Assembly: GCA_009781075.1 (NCBI GenBank)
Contig: WQYU01000001.1
Span: 5,373 to 69,372 of the forward strand
From: Paludibacter sp.
GTDB lineage: Bacteria > Bacteroidota > Bacteroidia > Bacteroidales > Paludibacteraceae
DNA length: 64,000 nucleotides
Direction: 5' to 3'
Shown here: positions 16,729-46,729 of the stretch, piece after piece
Position numbering within the stretch: position 1 is the first letter of the stretch
Layout of the letters: every line of letters begins with the position of its first letter
Notes under the pieces: generated by a model
The model's database searches: none
What the model saw: the letters and a program-made list of their open reading frames with translations, nothing else
Told to the model about the DNA's origin: nothing
Position numbers and translations under genes: made by a program

Positions 16729-18633
16729 TTAACTATTGAACCACATATTTTTCAAATTTTCTTGGTTGCAAATATCTTTTGCACCTTGTTGATAGAGTGC
16801 CTCAAGTCGGTCGGCATAGCGTTTTTCAACTTTTGCACGAACAATTTTCATGGTACTGTTCACAAGCCCGTTCTGCTCGGTAAATGGTTCTGCGATAATT
16901 GCCACTGCTGCCGGCAACCAGCGTTCGGGGAATTCACCTGCATGCAAACCGCCTTTTTTATATGCATCAATTTCACTCTGAATAAGTTTCAGCGCTGCAA
17001 TTTTACCTTCTTGTGTATCAAACGAAAGTCCTTGTTTTTTGAGATAACTTTTCAGTTGCTCTTTTTCGGGTACAATCAAAGCGGAAGTATATGGGCTTTG
17101 ATTATTGTACAAAACCACTTGGTCGATATACGGCGAGCCATCGCACAATGATTCCTCAATACCTTCAGGGCTGTATTTTTCACCGTCAGATGCTATCAGC
17201 AAACTCTTAAATCTACCCACAACATACAGGAAACCATCTTTGTCCATATAACCCATATCGCCGGTATAAAGCCAGCCGTCTTTTATGGTTTCGGCTGTGG
17301 CTTTCTCGTTTTTCCAATAACCGAGCATCACATTTTCTCCACGAACAACAATTTCTCCGTTTTGTCCCAGCGGCAATTCTTTGCCATCAGAATCGCAAAT
17401 TTTTAGTTCAAGATTTTCAACCAAAAAGCCCGATGAACCGAGTTTATGCTTGTCGAGCGAGTTTGCAGAAATAATTGGCGTTGCCTCCGAAAGTCCATAG
17501 CCCTGCAACATAGGAATGCCTATTGCATAAAAAAATCTTTGCAGTTCAATATCAAGTAGCGCTCCACCGCCGATAAAAAAATTTAAACGCCCTCCAAATG
17601 CCTCGCGTACTTTGGAGAAAAGAATTTTATCATATATTTTTAATAAAATTTTTGTGAAAGGATTTTTACTTTTATTATACCCTTCGCGGTTGAATTTATA
17701 AGCAGTTTTAAGCGCATTGTTAAAGAGTTTTACTGTAAATTCGCCTTTCTCTTTTATATTTGATTCAATATTTTTACGGAAATTTTTTGCCAGTGCAGGA
17801 ACACTCATAATTACCGTCGGGCGAAATTCTTTAATATTTTTAGGAATATTTTTCAATGCTTCGGCAGGAGTTTTTCCGCGCTGAACCGTTGCTACATTCG
17901 CACCAAAAGCCATAAAAGAATAAAATCCTGCAACGTGTCCAAAACAATGGTCGAGCGGAATAATAATCAGATTGCTGTCGTCATTTGTGATTTTCATCAG
18001 CGACATTGCCTGTTCTACGTTTGCGGTGTAATTTCGATGCGAGAGCATAATCCCTTTCGGGTCAGCGGTTGTTCCGGAAGTGTAACTGATGTTTGCAATA
18101 TCGTTTGGAGCAACGGCAGTTGCAATTTTTTCAATCTCTTGACGATTTTTATCTAACAAATTTTTACCGTCTGCCACCACTTTATCAAAAGAAATTTCTT
18201 TACTTTGCAGTTCTGCTTCCGGTTTGTCGAACACTATGACCGCCTGTATTTGCGGCAGGTCATTTATTATTGCACGAATTTTGCGCAGTTGAGTTCCGGA
18301 AACAATTACAAATTTGCTGTCGGAATGTTTAAGGCGAAATAATAAGTCGCTTACCTCTTCCAACTTAATAGAAAGCGGTACATTGACCGCTCCCAAATGC
18401 ACAATAGATAATTCTCCGATAATCCAGTTGTTGCATCCTTCTGCCAAAATAGCAAGTTTGTCATCTTTTTTCACACCCAGATTAAGCAGCCCCGATGCCA
18501 ACTGATATACCTGTTCTTTTGTTTGTTTGAAAGTTATCGGCTCAAATTTTTCACCTGTTTTTTCCCAAAGGAAAGTTTTTTCACTAAATTTTTCAACACT
18601 ATTGTTAAATAAATCAATAATTGTGGTTTTCAT
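16729..18633 (-). CDS. Long-chain fatty acid-CoA ligase (AMP-dependent synthetase)
   Basis: ISYTSGTTADPKGIMLSHRN AMP-binding motif, YGLSE and GDMGYMDKDGFLYVVGR. Confidence 0.9.
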   Translation of the reverse strand: MKTTIIDLFNNSVEKFSEKTFLWEKTGEKFEPITFKQTKEQVYQLASGLLNLGVKKDDKLAILAEGCNNWIIGELSIVHLGAVNVPLSIKLEEVSDLLFRLKHSDSKFVIVSGTQLRKIRAIINDLPQIQAVIVFDKPEAELQSKEISFDKVVADGKNLLDKNRQEIEKIATAVAPNDIANISYTSGTTADPKGIMLSHRNYTANVEQAMSLMKITNDDSNLIIIPLDHCFGHVAGFYSFMAFGANVATVQRGKTPAEALKNIPKNIKEFRPTVIMSVPALAKNFRKNIESNIKEKGEFTVKLFNNALKTAYKFNREGYNKSKNPFTKILLKIYDKILFSKVREAFGGRLNFFIGGGALLDIELQRFFYAIGIPMLQGYGLSEATPIISANSLDKHKLGSSGFLVENLELKICDSDGKELPLGQNGEIVVRGENVMLGYWKNEKATAETIKDGWLYTGDMGYMDKDGFLYVVGRFKSLLIASDGEKYSPEGIEESLCDGSPYIDQVVLYNNQSPYTSALIVPEKEQLKSYLKKQGLSFDTQEGKIAALKLIQSEIDAYKKGGLHAGEFPERWLPAAVAIIAEPFTEQNGLVNSTMKIVRAKVEKRYADRLEALYQQGAKDICNQENLKNMWFNS

Positions 18634-18814
18634 AATATTAAATAAAATTAAAAACTAAAAAACATTTTTTCTACAATCATATTTAGGGGACTTCTAAAAA
18701 TTAGTTTTTTACATTTTGATTTTTCAAAGAGCTGAAGTCCGCTAAAACTCTACGAAAAATCATTCCAAAGTAAACCAATATTTTTAAGATAAACAACACT
18801 CTCATTGAAAATTT

Positions 18815-18841
18815 ATCTATCTATCTATCTATCTATCTATC
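18815..18841. repeat. (ATCT)n tetranucleotide microsatellite, about 6.75 units
   Basis: Read directly as atctatctatctatctatctatctatc. It lies inside the IS, between the left IR and the transposase stop codon. Confidence 0.95.
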
Positions 18842-21748: not shown

Positions 21749-22180
21749 ATGTATAAGGTTTATTTAGATAATTGCTGCTTTAATCGTCCTTATGATGACC
21801 AAACACAAGTCCGCATTGAGTTTGAAACACAATCAAAACTTTACATTCAGAGTTTGGTTATTCAAAATCGCATAGAACTTGTGTGGTCATATATTTTGAA
21901 ATACGAAAACAGTAAAAACATCTACGAATCGAAACGTCAAGCAATAGCGGAATGGGAAAAATTAAGCACGCATTTTGTCGGAAAATCAAACGAAATTGTA
22001 GAAACGGCAAAAGAAATTATGAATACAGGTATTAAAACATTTGATGCTCTTCACATTGCTTGCGCCATTCACGGAAATTGCGACTATTTTATTACCGTTG
22101 ATAAACAATTACTGAAATATAAAGACGAGCGAATAACAATTTGTAATCCCATAGAATTTTTTAACAACACAACAATATGA
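21749..22180 (+). CDS. PIN-domain nuclease (putative toxin)
   Basis: 143 aa. Acidic positions occur in YLDNCCF, FDALHIACA and ITVDKQL, which is the PIN pattern. Confidence 0.78.
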   Translation: MYKVYLDNCCFNRPYDDQTQVRIEFETQSKLYIQSLVIQNRIELVWSYILKYENSKNIYESKRQAIAEWEKLSTHFVGKSNEIVETAKEIMNTGIKTFDALHIACAIHGNCDYFITVDKQLLKYKDERITICNPIEFFNNTTI

Positions 22181-22419
22181 AAAATCACAATGCACTTTTT
22201 GACAAAGGCATACGCTGCCTTACCAAAGAATTAGGACTTTTAGGAGCCGAACAATTCGTGTTTTTGCTTTTGAGCCAAGCGTTTGATTATACCGAATGGC
22301 GCAAAGACAATTTATTTGTAGATATGAGCATTGATGAAATAAGCGATGCCGCCGATAAATATTGCAGTGAAAATATTGCAGAAAATCACACTGAAAATTT
22401 TAAGCAAATTAATGCTTGA
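22177..22419 (+). CDS. Hypothetical 80-aa protein, putative cognate antitoxin
   Basis: ATGA start/stop overlap with the PIN gene. The protein is small and has an acidic tail. I do not recognise the family. Confidence 0.55.
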   Translation: MKNHNALFDKGIRCLTKELGLLGAEQFVFLLLSQAFDYTEWRKDNLFVDMSIDEISDAADKYCSENIAENHTENFKQINA

Positions 22420-22448: not shown

Positions 22449-22765
22449 GTCATTGCGGATTTATTCCACAATCGGTTGAAACAACAATCTGGATTGCTTC
22501 GCTATCGCTCGCAATGACGTACAAGGGAGATTGCTTCGCCGCCTACGGCGGCTCGCAATGACGATAAACAAGGTGAACATACGTCATTACAACGCCGCTA
22601 TTGCGGCGTGTCAACGGCGCACGCTTATATTAAAAAAAACCGTTCGTGTATAAAAACGGGGTGTTCGTGTATAAATTCGGGCTGTAAGCCCAATATAACC
22701 CAGCCCAATGACAATGCCCTGTGAAATTAAGAGCAGATTGCGGATTTAATCCGCAATGACGAAGA
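22449..22765. repeat. Cluster of GC-rich REP-like hairpin modules
   Basis: ctggattgcttcgctatcgctcgcaatgacgt... is a truncated copy of the 21496 palindrome. Other modules are cgccgc-tatt-gcggcg, the gggctgtaagccc... module (22678-27) and attgcggatt-taa-tccgcaat. Confidence 0.8.
22642..22683 (+). repeat. 21-bp tandem repeat, distal cluster (2 units)
   Basis: gttcgtgtataaaaacggggt followed by gttcgtgtataaattcgggct. Confidence 0.85.
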
Positions 22766-22815: not shown

Positions 22816-22863
22816 GTTCGTGTATAAAATCGGGGTGTTCGTGTATAAAATCGGGGTGTTCGT
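22816..22863 (+). repeat. 21-bp tandem repeat, promoter-proximal cluster (2.3 units)
   Basis: gttcgtgtataaaatcggggt twice (identical), then gttcgt. The cluster ends 33 nt upstream of the -7 box. Confidence 0.9.
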
Positions 22864-22895
22864 AAAAAAGTTGAATAATCTGTATCTTGTGTTTA

Positions 22896-22903
22896 TATCT
22901 TTG
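22896..22903 (+). promoter_or_regulatory. -7 promoter box (TATCTTTG)
   Basis: TAnnTTTG match 47 nt upstream of the ATG at 22950. Confidence 0.45.
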
Positions 22904-22949
22904 CACTTTATTTTTTAATTATATTATAAACAATTTAAATTTTATCAAA

Positions 22950-24206
22950 ATGAAGAAATTTACATTATTTCTAACGGCTTTATGCTTTTCTGCCTTTATA
23001 AACAAAGCAAATGCACAAACGTGGAACATCGGCAGCCCAAATGCTACCGACGTAACCGCAACGCTTTCGGGTAGTAGCCCGAACTATACGCTCACCATTA
23101 GCGGTACAGGCGCTATGCAGGATTTTGAAACTCCACCTTGGTGGAGCATTAGAACCAAGATTACAACCCTTGTGATAAACACAGGGATTACAACTATTGG
23201 CAATTGGGCTTTTGATGATTGCAGCGGCTTAACAGGCACATTAACTATTCCTAATTCGGTTACTTCAATTGGAAATTGTGCTTTTGATGGTTGTTACGGC
23301 TTAACAGGCACATTAACTATTCCTAATTCGGTTACTGCGATAGGAAATTATGCTTTTTCTGGTTGCAGCGGCTTAACAGGTACATTAACTATTCCTAATT
23401 CGGTTATTACAATAGGAAATTCTGCTTTTTCTGGTTGCAGCGGCTTAACAGGTACATTAACTATTCCTAATTCGGTTACTACGATAGGAAAGTGGGTTTT
23501 TTATCATTGCAGCGGCTTAACAGGAACATTAACTATTCCTAATTCGGTTACTACAATAGGAGATGTTGCTTTTGCTGATTGCAGCGGCTTAACAGCAGTA
23601 ACTATCGGAAATTCGGTTACTACAATAGGAGATCAGGCTTTTCAGAGTTGCAGCGGCTTAACAGTAGTAACTATCGGAAATTCGGTTACTACGATAGGCA
23701 CTCTTGCTTTTATTTATTGCAGCAGCTTAACATCGGTAATAAATTTGAACAAATATCCTCAAAATATTACATCAGTTGTTTTTTATATTTTTGAAGAAGA
23801 TACTGATATTGGTTCTGCAACGCTTACTGTTCCTGCCTGCGCTTTAAATGATTATCGCAATGCTGCTGTGTGGAATACTTTTGGCACAATAATAGGCGAT
23901 GCAACTTTGCCTTGCGAAGGCACAAGTAATATTGCAACGGTTGAGGCAAACAATATCACACTTTATCCAAATCCTGTAAAAGACGAGTTACAGGTTACGA
24001 GTTACGAGTTACGAGTTACAGGATGGTGCGTTGTACAGCATTTTCAGCATAACAGGTCAGGCGCTTATGCAAGGCAAATTACAAGGCGAAACCACCACAA
24101 TCAACGTTTCATCATTGCCCAACGGCGTTTATTTTATCAAAGCAGGCAATATGGAAGGGAAGTTTGTAAAGGAATAATTAATTATCGTCATTACGAGGCT
24201 CCGTAG
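22950..24206 (+). CDS. BspA-type leucine-rich-repeat surface protein, C-terminally frameshifted relative to its T9SS sorting domain
   Basis: I start the gene at MKKFTLFLTALCFSAFINKANA (signal peptide). About 10 LRR units of roughly 23 aa follow (GLTGTLTIPNSVTxIGNxAFxGCS). After LYPNPVKDEL the current frame reads a basic nonsense tail, while the +1 frame encodes a CTD. Confidence 0.8.
   Translation: MKKFTLFLTALCFSAFINKANAQTWNIGSPNATDVTATLSGSSPNYTLTISGTGAMQDFETPPWWSIRTKITTLVINTGITTIGNWAFDDCSGLTGTLTIPNSVTSIGNCAFDGCYGLTGTLTIPNSVTAIGNYAFSGCSGLTGTLTIPNSVITIGNSAFSGCSGLTGTLTIPNSVTTIGKWVFYHCSGLTGTLTIPNSVTTIGDVAFADCSGLTAVTIGNSVTTIGDQAFQSCSGLTVVTIGNSVTTIGTLAFIYCSSLTSVINLNKYPQNITSVVFYIFEEDTDIGSATLTVPACALNDYRNAAVWNTFGTIIGDATLPCEGTSNIATVEANNITLYPNPVKDELQVTSYELRVTGWCVVQHFQHNRSGAYARQITRRNHHNQRFIIAQRRLFYQSRQYGREVCKGIINYRHYEAP
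23987..24021 (+). repeat. Heptanucleotide tandem repeat GTTACAG-(GTTACGA)x3-GTTACAG inside the coding sequence
   Basis: Read directly from the sequence. The unit length of 7 is not a multiple of 3. Confidence 0.95.
24022..24177 (+). other. T9SS C-terminal sorting domain segment, in the +1 frame relative to the upstream LRR ORF
   Basis: Translates to DGALYSIFSITGQALMQGKLQGETTTINVSSLPNGVYFIKAGNMEGKFVKE*, a typical Por/T9SS CTD ending. Confidence 0.8.
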
Positions 24207-24244
24207 GGGCAGGTTTTACACCTGCCCCTACAAAACCTGCCCCC

Positions 24245-24359
24245 TTTGCTGCCCCTCGTTTGCAACGATGGGGCTAATGGTATAGCGTTTTTAACGTATA
24301 ATATTTTATGTTAAAAACATAAAAACAAATTCCACTCGTTTGTAAACGAATGGAAACAA
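24245..24359 (+). repeat. 115-nt direct repeat, copy 1 (three hairpins)
   Basis: It differs from 24424-24538 by 6 substitutions, with an offset of exactly 179 nt. Confidence 0.92.
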
Positions 24360-24423: not shown

Positions 24424-24538
24424 TTTGCTGCCCCTCGTTTGCAACGATGGGGCTAATTGTAGAACGTTTTTAACGTATAATATTTTATGTTAAAAACATA
24501 AAAACATATTCCACTCGTTTACAAACGAATGGAAACAA
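24424..24538 (+). repeat. 115-nt direct repeat, copy 2
   Basis: See copy 1. The third hairpin loop is AC here versus GT in copy 1. Confidence 0.92.
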
Positions 24539-44445: not shown

Positions 44446-44542
44446 AAACAAATGAATGAATGACACCAAGCGGCTTAACATATATGGGAGTTAGCGGCAA
44501 TTCGACAGACTGTGCAGCAGACACATTAAAAAAATATTGAAA

Positions 44543-46729
44543 ATGAAACAAGTGAAGAATTTTGAAAAATTTGAAGAAGATGTAAAATCCTTATATGAGT
44601 CCTTTGGCTTTAAAGTATATAAAGACGTTTTAATAGATGCCAACCAAATTGATTTAATTGCCGAACTTCAAAAAGCAGGAGTATTGTATAGAAACATGAT
44701 TGAATGCAAAGCATATAGTGAAAACGTTGGTATTCAAGAATTAAATATATTCATAGGGAGATTTTTAACTGCAAAACAGAATAAAAAAGCGGATAAAGGT
44801 ATTTTTGTTACAACGACTGGTTTTACACGGGATGCGAAAGAGGCTGCTGCCAACGCTGGAATAGACCTTTTTATTTATTCTGACCTCCTTAAAGAATTAC
44901 AAAATTTTGAACCACTTGCAGAAAAAATGGTTACAGACTGGCATTCTTCTAAAGAGTACTCATATTACGTTGAGCCATTTGGTAAATTAGATGGACAAAA
45001 TGAAGAATCACCACTTATTGATATCATCAACTTAAAACTAAATTCAAAAAAAGGAGAAGTAATCGCATTATTGGGTGAATATGGTTCAGGTAAATCAATT
45101 TTCTTACAAAAACTTGCTGCTGATTTCGCTGCCAAATATTTATCGTCTAAATATCATGATAAAATTCCAATATTTATTAAACTTAGAGAATTACAATATT
45201 TCAGGGATATAAAAGATTTAATTAAACACACTATTTCTCAGCAAGGAATCGAAGTGTCCAAAAATAATATATTCGACGAGATGTTAAGAAATGGCAAATT
45301 TCTTCTTTTGTTGGATGGATTAGATGAAATTACCCCAGATGTTGATGAAGATGTTATTATTGAGCAACTTTCTAGATTAAATGAAATAATGATAGAGGGC
45401 AGTAATGTAATTATAACTAGCAGGTCGAATTTTTTTCAGGGTAAGCAAAGAGCTAAAATGATTTTACAAGATTTAGAACGCACTAGTTTAGAAAAATCTG
45501 CATCTCCAAGAAAATCATTTGCTGTGGTATGGCTTCAGGATTTTAGTGATACTCAAATAAGTGATTTTTTAAAGAACCGAATACCTAAAGACGCAAATGA
45601 TTGTTTTAAAATGCTTAAAGAAACATATAATCTTGAAGATTTAGCGAAAAGACCTATTTTGTTGGATATTATTTCAAACATGATGCCTGAAATAAAGAAA
45701 TTGAAAGGAGAAGTTAATGCTGCAAAATTATATGAAATATATACCAACTTATGGATAGACAGAGAAAAAAAGGAAAGAAATACTTCTCTTTCTAAAAAAA
45801 TAAAAAGACAATTCTGTCATGAGGTCTCATGGCATCTATTTATACATTCGTTGCTTGAAATTAGTTTTAGTGTTCTTACTAAAAAAATAAAAGATGTAGT
45901 TTCTCGGATAGAAGGTAGTGATGAAATCTCTGGAGCAATATTATTTGATGCACAAGTTTGTTCTTTTATGGAAGTAGGTGAAAACAAAACATTACATTTT
46001 GCTCATCGTTCATTTTCTGAATTTTTTTGTGCTCAAAAATTATGTAATGAAATAAATAATAATGATTTATCCTCATATCGTTTAAAATGCTTAACTCCTG
46101 AAATTCAATTTTTCTTACTTGATTATATTGGTAAACATGACTGCAAAAAAATGTTTCTCAACTGGGCGGCAAACCAAGATGATTTTGACTTAAAGGGGAA
46201 AGCACTTTGGTCAATGAATATTTTGGGAATCAATATAAAAGATTACAATCTCGAAAATGCTAATTTTAGTCATACACGATTTGAAGGTTTTGTATTTGAA
46301 GGGCTTAATTTGTCAAATTGTAATTTTCATGGTTCAAATCTTAATGGAGCAAAATTTATCAATTGTAATTTGAATAATTGTGTATTCCATAATGCAAATT
46401 TAGAAAACTCTGATTTCAGTTCTTCGTATGGTGAGCAAATTGATTTTTCCAACGCGAAACTTAATGAAACTAACTTTCTAAATACGAATTTTCATAAATG
46501 CAATTTGAAAAATTCAATCTTGTCAAATGCTGAATTAACTCATTGTGATTTAAGAGATTCAAATTTACAAAGAGCAGTTTTCTACCAAACAGATATTCAA
46601 AATGCGGATTTGAGAGGTACAAAAATTATCAAAATAGATATAGTAAGTAAATGTAAAAACTGGGAAAGTGCAGAATGGGACAAAGCAAATTTGAGCAGAT
46701 TAAATGAGGCAAAAAAAAGATATTCTTAA
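44543..46729 (+). CDS. Mrr-like PD-(D/E)xK nuclease / NACHT NTPase / pentapeptide-repeat protein (candidate NLR-type antiphage defence)
   Basis: The ORF track starts at TTG 44537, so I use the ATG at 44543. N-terminal ...QIDLIAEL...MIECKAY... is the nuclease motif. Walker A GEYGSGKS (nt 45074-45097), Walker B FLLLLDGLDE and the NACHT-type FAHRSFSEFFCAQ are present. About 130 aa of A(N/D)LxX pentapeptide repeats cover nt ~46244-46640. Confidence 0.85.
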   Translation: MKQVKNFEKFEEDVKSLYESFGFKVYKDVLIDANQIDLIAELQKAGVLYRNMIECKAYSENVGIQELNIFIGRFLTAKQNKKADKGIFVTTTGFTRDAKEAAANAGIDLFIYSDLLKELQNFEPLAEKMVTDWHSSKEYSYYVEPFGKLDGQNEESPLIDIINLKLNSKKGEVIALLGEYGSGKSIFLQKLAADFAAKYLSSKYHDKIPIFIKLRELQYFRDIKDLIKHTISQQGIEVSKNNIFDEMLRNGKFLLLLDGLDEITPDVDEDVIIEQLSRLNEIMIEGSNVIITSRSNFFQGKQRAKMILQDLERTSLEKSASPRKSFAVVWLQDFSDTQISDFLKNRIPKDANDCFKMLKETYNLEDLAKRPILLDIISNMMPEIKKLKGEVNAAKLYEIYTNLWIDREKKERNTSLSKKIKRQFCHEVSWHLFIHSLLEISFSVLTKKIKDVVSRIEGSDEISGAILFDAQVCSFMEVGENKTLHFAHRSFSEFFCAQKLCNEINNNDLSSYRLKCLTPEIQFFLLDYIGKHDCKKMFLNWAANQDDFDLKGKALWSMNILGINIKDYNLENANFSHTRFEGFVFEGLNLSNCNFHGSNLNGAKFINCNLNNCVFHNANLENSDFSSSYGEQIDFSNAKLNETNFLNTNFHKCNLKNSILSNAELTHCDLRDSNLQRAVFYQTDIQNADLRGTKIIKIDIVSKCKNWESAEWDKANLSRLNEAKKRYS

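What the first reader, a model, noticed from the sequence alone, without database searches (positions are those of the whole stretch)
23987..24177. Heptanucleotide repeat tract uncouples a BspA-type LRR surface protein from its T9SS sorting domain (possible slipped-strand phase switch)
The LRR ORF reads ...LYPNPVKDELQVTSYELRVTGW and then a basic nonsense tail ending at 24206. The +1 frame from 24022 encodes a textbook T9SS C-terminal domain ending (DGALYSIFSITGQALMQGKLQGETTTINVSSLPNGVYFIKAGNMEGKFVKE*, stop at 24175-24177). The junction is a tandem tract GTTACAG-GTTACGA-GTTACGA-GTTACGA-GTTACAG (23987-24021). The unit is 7 nt, so each unit gained or lost shifts the frame. By hand, deleting one GTTACGA unit gives ...KDELQVTSYELQDGALYSIFSITGQ..., a continuous LRR-CTD protein. 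Adding two units would also restore the frame. The T9SS CTD is required for secretion and surface attachment, so the present allele should be an OFF or non-exported state.
Basis: partly seen in the sequence, partly recalled or inferred. Interest (0 to 1): 0.72.

Follow-up and report, generated by a model that had tools for sequence, protein, structure and literature searches.

The report
Seven-base repeat frameshifts a secretion tag
A surface-adhesin gene of an uncultured Paludibacter carries one extra copy of a 7-base repeat inside its type IX secretion tag, which knocks the tag out of frame; this is a real replication-slippage allele that should block export, but nothing yet shows that the cell uses it as an on/off switch.

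Summary
GTTACAG-(GTTACGA)x3-GTTACAG lies at 23987-24021. The BspA-type LRR gene (ATG 22950) runs through it into a nonsense tail that ends at 24206. The +1 frame from 24022 to 24177 encodes the rest of a T9SS type A sorting domain (CTD).

Removing one unit, or adding two, gives a protein that passes TIGR04183 and PF18962. The sequence as it stands does not.

One correction: the tract lies inside the CTD, after LYPNPVKDELQV, not at an LRR/CTD junction.

Three related CTDs (L125, L209/L210, L004) have one unit fewer at the same place and are in frame. The window allele is therefore a one-unit insertion of 7 nt.

The 7-nt periodicity is a DNA-level feature of this CTD subfamily. It exceeds what the peptides require (409 lag-7 matches against 289±11). 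In the closest sample group 11 of 25 CTDs carry 7-nt tracts, against 1 of 64 upstream control segments, and no other period from 4 to 12 nt is enriched.

Switching itself is not shown. The perfect run is only 3.7 units, every in-frame relative seen has four units, and no read or strain data exist.

Verdict: a real slippage-derived loss-of-export allele, reversible in principle. A dedicated phase switch is possible, at about 0.27.

The parts
22896..22903 (+). TATCTTTG, a candidate Bacteroidota -7 promoter box (TAnnTTTG) 47 nt upstream of the ATG
   Evidence: Read from the sequence. The consensus comes from my own knowledge of Bacteroides promoters and was not tested.
22950..24206 (+). LRR surface-protein gene as it stands: 418 aa, identical to MCL2596086.1 (P0001), ending in a 65-residue out-of-frame tail
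   Evidence: PF13306 LRR_5 E = 9e-52.
22950..23015 (+). N-terminal Sec signal peptide MKKFTLFLTALCFSAFINKANA
   Evidence: By inspection of the translation. The paralogue P0022 and P0008 start the same way. No predictor was run.
23188..23732 (+). Array of 72-nt (24-aa) BspA-type LRR units, 7.7 copies
   Evidence: TRF period 72, 85% matches; PF13306.
23961..23984 (+). Start of the T9SS type A CTD (LYPNPVKD), still in the gene's frame
   Evidence: The TIGR04183 and PF18962 matches start at residue 338 of the repaired protein, which is nt 23961.
23985..24021 (+). Any one of the three identical GAGTTAC units at 23999-24019 (equivalently, one GTTACGA unit of 23994-24014) is supernumerary.
   Evidence: The unit-register alignment with L125, L004 and L209 shows four units there and five here.
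24022..24177 (+). Remainder of the CTD (DGALYSIF...GKFVKE, then stop) in the +1 frame. It is intact and includes the C-terminal strands that carry the export signal.
   Evidence: It matches a CTD C-part HMM at 4.7e-18. The best exhaustive hit is 86% identical. Against L125 there are 8 synonymous and 6 non-synonymous codon differences and no stop.
24178..24206 (+). End of the out-of-frame tail, read past the normal stop codon

Best explanation
The gene encodes a Sec-exported BspA-type LRR surface protein whose last ~70 residues should form a T9SS type A sorting domain.

The first strand and following loop of that domain are encoded by a short, partly homogenised heptanucleotide microsatellite. 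The canonical form is four GAGTTAC-like units followed by two degenerate ones, 42 nt or 14 codons in all.

In this genome one GAGTTAC unit has been duplicated, most likely by replication slippage. The added 7 nt shift the frame after ...KDELQVTSYEL. All later strands of the CTD are lost, including the C-terminal hairpin that the T9SS recognises, and are replaced by a 65-residue basic tail.

The product should reach the periplasm but be neither translocated nor anchored, so this is a loss-of-export (OFF/null) allele.

Losing one unit or gaining two more would restore the frame, so the lesion is reversible in principle. I read the tract as a mutational hot spot that occasionally throws off such alleles, not as a tuned high-frequency switch.

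Shown: the tract, the frameshift, CTD identity only in the repaired frames, the four-unit in-frame state in relatives, and the DNA-level 7-nt periodicity. Inferred: slippage as the cause, periplasmic retention, and a low switching rate.
For: - Tract and frames.
- CTD profiles are passed only after repair. TIGR04183 gives 47.1 bits for the -1 allele and 45.9 bits for the +2 allele (CTD segment scanned alone); the as-is protein has no hit.
- Unit-register alignment: the window has GAGTTAC AGGTTAC GAGTTAC GAGTTAC GAGTTAC AGGATGG. L125 has GAGTTAC AGGTTAC GAGTTAC AAGTTAC AGGATGG. L209/L210 has CAGTTAC AAGTTAC GAGTTAC GAGTTAC AAGAGGG. L004 has GAATTAA TAATTAA GAATGAA GAATTAA GAATGGG. All three relatives are in frame.
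- The spacing between PNP and the YSIF strand in P0008, P0061 and P0002 fits the -1 allele.
- The downstream CTD is undecayed: 52 codons against L125, 8 synonymous and 6 non-synonymous differences, no stop.
- The periodicity is at DNA level: 22 of 35 lag-7 matches against 12.6±2.8 after synonymous-codon resampling for this gene, and 409 against 289±11 over 19 CTDs.
- The contig is a MEGAHIT k141 assembly, so a 35-nt tract is shorter than the final k-mer. The ten largest ORFs were scanned: nine give matches spanning most of their family profile, and none shows an obvious break.
- A paralogue with an intact CTD lies in the same assembly.
- The CTD C-terminus is the export signal (PMC4804311; PMC4560394).
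Against: - There is no read-level or strain-level information. The protein is a singleton cluster and no orthologous locus was found in JGI metagenomes.
- Neither the rate nor the reversibility of the change can be stated.
- The relatives with four units are homologous CTDs on other genes or in other organisms. L125 is 80% identical in nucleotides and shows no similarity to the window beyond the stop codon. They are not the same locus in sister strains.
- The strong, CTD-specific and lag-7-specific enrichment of heptamer tracts in this lineage is not what a mere accident would predict. It leaves room for selection for switchability.
Confidence: 0.58

Rival explanations
1. The tract is a true contingency locus. 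It is maintained by second-order selection, and its unit number changes at high frequency (1e-5 per generation or more). Each population would then hold ON cells (4 or 7 units) and OFF cells (5 or 6 units), and surface display of the adhesin would be toggled by adding or removing its T9SS sorting signal.
For: - The gene is a surface LRR adhesin, the classic class for such loci.
- The repeat unit is not a multiple of three.
- The downstream CTD is intact.
- In CTD DNA of the closest sample group, lag-7 runs of at least 10 occur in 11 of 25 CTDs against 1 of 64 upstream control segments. No other lag from 4 to 12 is enriched, and 0 of 55 CTDs from other samples have them.
- Tracts cluster at two loop sites, +18 to +26 and +86 to +94 nt after PNP, with a different homogenised unit in each gene: TCTCAAC x4.3, TGGTCAA x3, GAATTAT, GAATTGA. 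This implies repeated DNA-level turnover, which by single-unit steps must pass through out-of-frame states.
- Codon choices reinforce the 7-nt period.
- Heptanucleotide switching inside coding sequence is established for neuO (PMC13001214).
Against: - The perfect run is 26 nt (3.7 units), and was 19 nt before the slip. Known heptanucleotide switches are far longer: 13-38 units for hmw, and 3-53 for neuO with 20 the commonest.
- The unit number is four in all in-frame relatives read (L125, L209/L210, L004) or inferred from peptides (P0126, P0135). No 4+3 variant was seen.
- Only 1 of 91 CTD C-terminal parts examined is out of frame, and it is this one, although the set is biased towards in-frame copies.
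- Three orphan CTD remnants from the same sample group, chosen from the short hits, are not explained by heptamer slips: no upstream PNP motif is left in any frame.
- No paper in the library links repeats to T9SS CTDs.
Confidence: 0.27
2. The extra unit is an assembly or consensus artefact. The organism really carries four units and an intact gene.
For: The sequence comes from a single metagenome assembly and the MAG derived from it, so there is no independent copy. Tandem repeats are classic sites of assembly error.
Against: - The tract (35 nt) is much shorter than the final MEGAHIT k-mer (k141 contig name) and shorter than Illumina reads. It should therefore be spelled out by single reads (inference).
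- Short-read errors are rarely 7-nt insertions (general knowledge).
- The housekeeping ORFs that were checked in the window align over most of their family profiles, for example fumarate hydratase 2-538 of 548.
- The extra unit is an exact copy of its neighbour, as slippage in vivo would give. This does not exclude an artefact.
Confidence: 0.08
3. The frameshift is bypassed or irrelevant. Either ribosomes shift +1 within the tract to make a full-length protein, or the truncated protein works without a CTD.
For: None directly. In a heptanucleotide repeat all three frames encode the same cyclic peptide (ELRVTSY), so a shift inside it would be silent locally.
Against: - There is no slippery X XXY YYZ or prfB-like site in GAGTTAC repeats.
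- No stimulatory structure was looked for or noticed.
- All in-frame relatives simply have one unit fewer.
- T9SS cargo without the CTD C-terminus is not exported (PMC4804311 and PMC4560394).
Confidence: 0.03

Closest known systems
neuO O-acetyltransferase of E. coli K1 (CUS-3 prophage), a heptanucleotide (AAGACTC)n phase switch inside the coding sequence
   Same: A 7-nt unit lies inside an ORF, and full-length translation needs the right unit number modulo 3. Three units encode a 7-residue peptide repeat that is part of the protein. Slipped-strand mispairing is the mechanism (PMC13001214).
   Different: neuO carries 3-53 perfect units, 20 being the commonest, in the 5' end of the gene. ON/OFF mixtures have been measured within cultures, and 66% of genomes are OFF. 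Here there are 5 units (3.7 perfect) at the 3' end, inside a sorting signal, so the switch would act on export rather than on synthesis of the protein, and no variation has been measured.
Haemophilus influenzae hmw1A/hmw2A adhesins with heptanucleotide repeats
   Same: An adhesin gene is associated with 7-nt repeats. One strain (PittAA) has (AATTTTG)14 inside the ORF with a frameshift attributed to repeat-length change (PMC2651432).
   Different: The well-studied hmw repeats lie in the promoter, number 13-38 units, and grade transcription. They are far longer than this tract, and the organism and secretion pathway differ (two-partner secretion rather than T9SS).
T9SS type A C-terminal sorting domain (TIGR04183 / PF18962) of BspA-like LRR proteins such as Tannerella forsythia BspA
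   Same: The architecture is signal peptide, then BspA-type LRR_5 repeats, then a C-terminal type A CTD. The CTD is a seven-strand sandwich whose last two strands are the export signal (PMC4804311).
   Different: In this allele the CTD is split over two reading frames. I found no report of repeat-mediated frameshifting within a CTD.
Long heptanucleotide simple-sequence repeats of prokaryotic genomes (Mrazek et al. 2007, as cited in PMC4679880; TAACTGA arrays)
   Same: Seven is the commonest unit length of long SSRs. GARTT-type heptamer arrays are abundant in Bacteroidota and Cyanobacteria genomes. A 22-unit (GTTACGA/GTTACAA) array occurs in a sister sample (L002).
   Different: Those arrays are long and mostly cannot be coding: 69 of 130 are closed in all six frames. 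None lies after a YPNP motif. The CTD tracts are short, interrupted where a stop would arise, and translated.

Membership tests
T9SS type A sorting domain (TIGR04183 / PF18962) | Profile match above the curated cut-off at the extreme C-terminus | tested here: not met
   The as-is 418-aa protein has no CTD hit. After removing one unit it scores 47.1 bits on TIGR04183 (cut-off 23) and 48.4 bits on PF18962 (cut-off 27), over residues 338-405 of 406. The +2 allele, scanned as an 80-aa CTD segment, scores 45.9 and 52.1 bits. The locus therefore encodes a CTD, but the present reading frame does not deliver it.
T9SS type A sorting domain (TIGR04183 / PF18962) | N-terminal Sec signal peptide on the same protein | tested here: inconclusive
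   MKKFTLFLTALCFSAFINKANA/Q looks like a signal peptide by eye. No predictor was available.
T9SS type A sorting domain (TIGR04183 / PF18962) | The host encodes a T9SS and uses it | tested here: inconclusive
   No T9SS component was found among the ten largest ORFs of the window. A paralogue with an intact CTD (P0022) and a CTD-only ORF (P0121) belong to the same MAG. The machinery genes themselves were not seen.
BspA-type leucine-rich repeat protein (PF13306 LRR_5) | Profile match above the cut-off and repeated units of about 24 aa | tested here: met
   PF13306 E = 9e-52, 174.7 bits against a cut-off of 27.7. There are 72-nt repeats in 7.7 copies.
Simple-sequence-repeat contingency (phase-variable) locus | Tandem tract within the ORF whose unit is not a multiple of 3, so that unit changes shift the frame | tested here: met
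Simple-sequence-repeat contingency (phase-variable) locus | Unit number differs between strains, or within a population, at the same locus | not testable with these tools
   There are no reads. The protein is a singleton cluster, and the flank scan of JGI metagenomes found nothing. Only homologous CTDs on other genes could be compared, and they have four units against five here.
Simple-sequence-repeat contingency (phase-variable) locus | Tract length in the range shown experimentally to switch at high rate | tested here: not met
   The tract has 3.7 perfect units (26 nt). hmw has 13-38 units, and neuO has 3-53 with 20 the commonest. The lower end of the neuO range overlaps, but no rates are given for such short tracts.
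Simple-sequence-repeat contingency (phase-variable) locus | Repeat purity beyond what the protein sequence requires | tested here: met
   Lag-7 matches are 22 of 35 against 12.6±2.8 for codon-resampled sequence (P = 0.0005). The family-wide figure is 409 against 289±11.

The most novel reading that the evidence does not exclude
In a lineage of Bacteroidales, apparently from termite guts, short heptanucleotide arrays embedded at two loop sites of T9SS type A sorting domains would form a family-wide contingency system. One-unit slips would detach the sorting signal from many different cargo proteins (LRR adhesins, Flg_new-domain proteins and others). Surface display would then be switched at the level of export rather than expression. 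The window's gene would be one member caught in the OFF state.
Probability: 0.2. Interest if true: 0.78.

Novelty: new variant of a known kind. Interest (0 to 1): 0.52.

Why it matters
Slipped-strand frameshifting in adhesin genes is well known. It has been described mostly in Proteobacteria and at the 5' end or promoter of a gene. In Bacteroidota, phase variation is generally attributed to DNA inversions.

A repeat placed inside the C-terminal T9SS sorting signal would switch export and anchoring while leaving synthesis untouched. Because CTD modules are shared among many cargo genes, a repeat-bearing CTD could confer switchability on any protein it is fused to.

In this group of metagenomes 7-nt tracts, and only 7-nt tracts, are enriched specifically in CTD-coding DNA. 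That makes the idea directly testable with existing read sets.

If the switch idea fails, the result still has practical value. It flags a recurrent frameshift hot spot that annotation pipelines miss: this protein is deposited as an ordinary 418-aa LRR protein.

Tried and rejected
1. Orthologous locus with a different unit number. An exact-flank scan with a variable gap over JGI metagenomes gave 0 hits. The protein search found only the MAG's own copy at more than 56% identity.

2. [quoted passage not shown] A five-unit degenerate pattern scanned over GTDB genomes gave 120 loci and 130 tracts. None follows a YPNP motif, apart from one spurious hit, and most cannot be coding. I rejected this idea. 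My recollection of ELRITNY-type peptides in databases probably stems from spurious ORFs called across such intergenic arrays.

3. A CTD-only search of the word-indexed protein database was nearly blind to short queries, with 21 and 6 candidates.

4. The DNA of P0121, a 75-aa CTD-only ORF in the same MAG, could not be retrieved. Whether it is a second uncoupled CTD remains open.

5. Orphan CTD C-terminal parts picked from the exhaustive search (L206, L207, L208) turned out to be remnants without an upstream PNP motif, not heptamer slips.

6. A scan for split CTDs over all fetched loci found only the window's own case, but that set was selected for good, hence in-frame, matches.

7. Programmed frameshifting: no slippery site is present, and I did not pursue it further.

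8. The paralogue P0022 in the same assembly has no 7-nt periodicity at the site, so the feature belongs to a CTD subfamily and not to the genome as a whole.
Full report
**1. Observation**

Window 23987-24021 reads GTTACAG GTTACGA GTTACGA GTTACGA GTTACAG. Tandem Repeats Finder reports 23983-24019, period 7, 5.3 copies, score 60. It is the longest period-7 array in the 64-kb window. A degenerate 19-nt version of the tract is never found in 100 dinucleotide-preserving shuffles.

The ORF 22887-24206, with its likely start at ATG 22950, translates to a protein with these parts:
- a signal-peptide-like N-terminus, MKKFTLFLTALCFSAFINKANAQ;
- a run of 24-residue BspA-type LRR units;
- ...NNITLYPNPVKDELQVTSYELRVTGW;
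- a 65-residue basic tail.

The +1 frame from 24022 gives DGALYSIFSITGQALMQGKLQGETTTINVSSLPNGVYFIKAGNMEGKFVKE, with a stop at 24175-24177. I rebuilt alleles with -3 to +3 GTTACGA units. Only -1 and +2 join the two frames.

**2. What the parts are**

The -1 allele (406 aa) matches three profiles:
- PF13306 (BspA-type LRR), E = 7e-52;
- TIGR04183, 47.1 bits against a cut-off of 23;
- PF18962, 48.4 bits against a cut-off of 27.

The +2 allele, scanned as an 80-aa CTD segment, also passes, at 45.9 and 52.1 bits. The as-is protein keeps only the LRR matches.

The CTD match covers residues 338-405, so it begins at LYPNP (nt 23961). The tract is therefore inside the CTD, in its first strand and the following loop. 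It is not at a junction between the LRR part and the CTD.

The solved RgpB CTD is a seven-strand sandwich, and its last 22 residues (strands 6-7) are regarded as the primary export signal (PMC4804311). [quoted passage not shown] The present allele loses everything after the first strand.

**3. Source**

The as-is protein is identical to MCL2596086.1, [quoted passage not shown]. It is a singleton cluster among about 15 billion proteins. It lies on a 69.8-kb MEGAHIT contig, ERZ27257292:k141_169549.

The neighbouring genes are ordinary: a metallo-beta-lactamase-fold protein, a glycosyltransferase, a PIN-domain protein, a sodium/solute symporter and a TonB-dependent receptor.

I scanned the ten largest ORFs of the window. 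Nine give family matches spanning most of their profile, among them FtsK, class I fumarate hydratase, RNase G, PBP4 and a MATE transporter. This argues against an indel-ridden assembly.

A 421-aa paralogue with an intact CTD (P0022, MCL2597719.1) lies in the same assembly. A 75-aa CTD-only ORF (P0121, MCL2596542.1) has an accession in the same MCL259xxxx series, so all three appear to belong to one MAG.

**4. Relatives fix the ancestral state**

No orthologue from a sister strain exists in the collections. A CTD-profile scan of JGI metagenomes gave 80 loci.

The closest is L125 (Ga0123357_10199402). It is 80% identical in nucleotides over window 23460-24177 and 88% identical in the CTD protein. 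Its similarity to the window ends at the stop codon, so it is a homologous gene, not the same locus.

In unit register:

| Source | Units | Frame and peptide |
|---|---|---|
| window | GAGTTAC AGGTTAC GAGTTAC GAGTTAC GAGTTAC AGGATGG TGCGTTG | out of frame |
| L125 | GAGTTAC AGGTTAC GAGTTAC AAGTTAC AGGATGG TGCGTTG | in frame, ELQVTSYKLQDGAL |
| L209/L210 (P0128; Flg_new-domain cargo) | CAGTTAC AAGTTAC GAGTTAC GAGTTAC AAGAGGG TGCGTTG | in frame, QLQVTSYELQEGAL |
| L004 (P0061) | GAATTAA TAATTAA GAATGAA GAATTAA GAATGGG | in frame |

P0126 and P0135, found by an exhaustive phmmer search with the C-terminal half of the CTD, have the same four-unit peptides on yet other cargo.

The canonical state is therefore four GAGTTAC-like units plus two degenerate ones, 42 nt or 14 codons. 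The window has one extra exact copy of GAGTTAC. The L209 sequence even shows the GAGTTAC GAGTTAC pair that would be the substrate for the slip.

The downstream CTD has not decayed. Against L125, 52 codons show 8 synonymous and 6 non-synonymous differences and no stop.

**5. The 7-nt periodicity is a DNA-level property of this CTD subfamily**

Other close CTDs (L126, L127, L129, L135, L147, L171) carry five to six RRRTTRN-like units at the same place. They encode ELTIENGELKVEN, ELRIMNYELRIMN and similar peptides.

For 19 CTDs I resampled synonymous codons using codon usage from the window. Observed lag-7 matches over the 42-nt site total 409, against 289±11 expected. For the window's -1 allele the figures are 22 against 12.6±2.8, P = 0.0005. 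The peptides alone therefore do not explain the periodicity.

Over all 80 CTDs, lags 7, 14 and 21 are raised compared with upstream coding DNA of the same loci. Local lag-7 runs cluster at two sites. One lies +18 to +26 nt after the PNP codons. The other lies +86 to +94 nt after them, in the next loop. A different homogenised unit is seen in each gene, for example TCTCAAC x4.3 in L147, TGGTCAA x3 in L128 and CTCATTC in L136.

I split the loci by sample series:

| Group | CTDs with a lag-7 run of at least 10 | Upstream control segments |
|---|---|---|
| Ga0123353/4/7, Ga0209628/9, JGI20166J26741 and similar | 11 of 25 | 1 of 64 |
| All other samples | 0 of 55 | 0 of 144 |

None of lags 4-6, 8 or 10-12 gives a run of at least 10 in these CTDs; lag 9 gives one CTD and one control segment.

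I believe the first group are termite-gut metagenomes. This rests only on the MAG title "Th196P3bin147 Ga0099364" seen, and I did not verify it.

One caveat applies. These 25 CTDs are also the query's closest relatives, so they are not independent observations. Their units differ, however, which argues for repeated turnover rather than one inherited tract.

**6. What this does and does not say about switching**

In favour of a switch:
- The gene is a surface adhesin.
- The unit length is not a multiple of 3.
- The downstream domain is intact.
- Tracts of precisely the frame-breaking period are enriched in CTD DNA and homogenised within genes. By single-unit steps, that turnover requires passage through out-of-frame states.

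Against a switch:
- The perfect run is 26 nt (3.7 units), and was 19 nt before the slip.
- Documented heptanucleotide switches are much longer. neuO has 3-53 units with 20 the commonest, shows measured ON/OFF mixtures, and is OFF in 66% of genomes (PMC13001214). hmw has 13-38 units (PMC2651432).
- Every in-frame relative seen has four units. No 4+3 variant was seen.
- Among 91 CTD C-terminal parts in all fetched loci, only the window's is out of frame with its PNP motif. That set is biased towards in-frame copies.
- Three orphan CTD remnants from the same sample group, chosen from the short hits (L206, L207, L208), have no upstream PNP motif left in any frame. They are not explained by repeat slips.
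- No paper in the searchable library connects repeats or slipped-strand mispairing with T9SS CTDs.

**7. A wider idea that failed**

I suspected that long GARTT-type heptamer arrays sit in CTDs throughout Bacteroidota. None of the 130 tracts follows a YPNP motif, and 69 are closed in all six frames.

Long arrays of that type are therefore mostly non-coding and not in CTDs. L002, from a sister sample, has 22 units of GTTACGA/GTTACAA between the 3' end of a CTD gene and the promoter region of a malQ-like gene. These arrays belong to the general class of heptanucleotide long SSRs (Mrazek et al. 2007, as cited in PMC4679880). The CTD tracts are short, translated relatives of that phenomenon.

**8. 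Verdict**

- **Best supported (0.58):** a single-unit slippage duplication within a short heptanucleotide microsatellite inside the CTD. It yields a protein that should be Sec-exported but not handled by the T9SS. The lesion is reversible in principle.
- **Dedicated phase-variable switch (0.27):** a live but unproven alternative.
- **Assembly artefact (0.08):** unlikely.
- **Recoding or a functional truncated protein (0.03):** very unlikely.

The specific mechanism, a repeat inside a T9SS sorting signal, appears undescribed. It is a new variant of a well-known kind. Read mapping across 23950-24060 in the source sample would settle the question.

Noticed in passing
window 22642-22685 and 22816-22863: Two pairs of 21-nt direct repeats (GTTCGTGTATAAAAnCGGGgt), four copies in all and found nowhere else in the window. 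The second pair ends about 35 nt upstream of the candidate -7 promoter box of the LRR gene. They could be operator or iteron-like sites, or parts of a small repeated element.
   Followed up: partly
window 24196-24243; also L127, L171 and protein P0121: A GC-rich palindrome (AGGGGCAGGTTTTACACCTGCCCCT) lies just downstream of the gene. Near-identical elements are translated in frame inside other CTDs, as GAGFTPAPTGG in P0121, AGLKPATTG in L127 and GASPAPTG in L171. A small palindromic element apparently inserts into CTD loops without destroying them.
   Followed up: partly
window 24287-24355 and 24466-24534: A duplicated block in the intergenic region downstream of the LRR gene. It has identical 16+16-nt palindromes (GTTTTTAACGTATAAT/ATTTTATGTTAAAAAC) and identical hairpins TTCCATTCGTTT..AAACGAGTGGAA. 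The GATTGCTTCGC...GCAATGACG-type motifs seen at 22480-22560 also occur nearby.
   Followed up: no
window 18814-18841: A perfect (TATC)7 tetranucleotide repeat in the intergenic region upstream of the acyl-CoA ligase gene (16729-18633, minus strand). It is another simple-sequence repeat that could vary in length.
   Followed up: no
window 21749-22419: A PIN-domain ORF (143 aa) overlaps the start of an 80-aa ORF. This is a likely toxin-antitoxin pair immediately upstream of the LRR gene region.
   Followed up: no
window 44537-46729: A 730-aa ORF has weak NACHT (antiphage EruA-like) and C-terminal pentapeptide-repeat matches. It is a possible STAND-type defence or signalling protein.
   Followed up: no
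L002 155-308 (ERZ27257346:k141_508): A 22-unit array of GTTACGA/GTTACAA, the same unit as in the finding. It lies between the 3' end of a minus-strand CTD gene and the TAtcTTTG box of a malQ-like gene. That CTD itself contains (GATATGA)n and (TCTCAAA)n tracts. A protein database entry (P0122) is a spurious ORF read across the array.
   Followed up: partly
They occur in Nostocales and other Cyanobacteria, Bacteroidota, Chloroflexota and others, and are mostly non-coding. Units such as GAGTTAG, GAATTAT, GAATTGG and GAATTAC recur across phyla.
   Followed up: partly
L126 about 20-60 nt upstream of the YPNP codons: A third place for heptamer repeats: (ATGGACA)x3, translated as NEWTMDNGQ, directly upstream of the CTD in the linker.
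   Followed up: no
Protein P0121 (MCL2596542.1), same MAG, on a 31-kb contig not held here: A 75-aa ORF that consists of a CTD only (MKIYPNPVKDELTIESGALTIENVV...). It may be a second cargo gene uncoupled from its sorting domain. Its DNA could not be retrieved.
   Followed up: partly
L206, L207, L208: Orphan C-terminal halves of CTDs with no PNP motif upstream in any frame. One lies downstream of an FGE-sulfatase-like gene, one overlaps the end of a 265-aa ORF, and one stands alone. They suggest frequent decay or rearrangement of CTD-bearing genes in these communities.
   Followed up: yes
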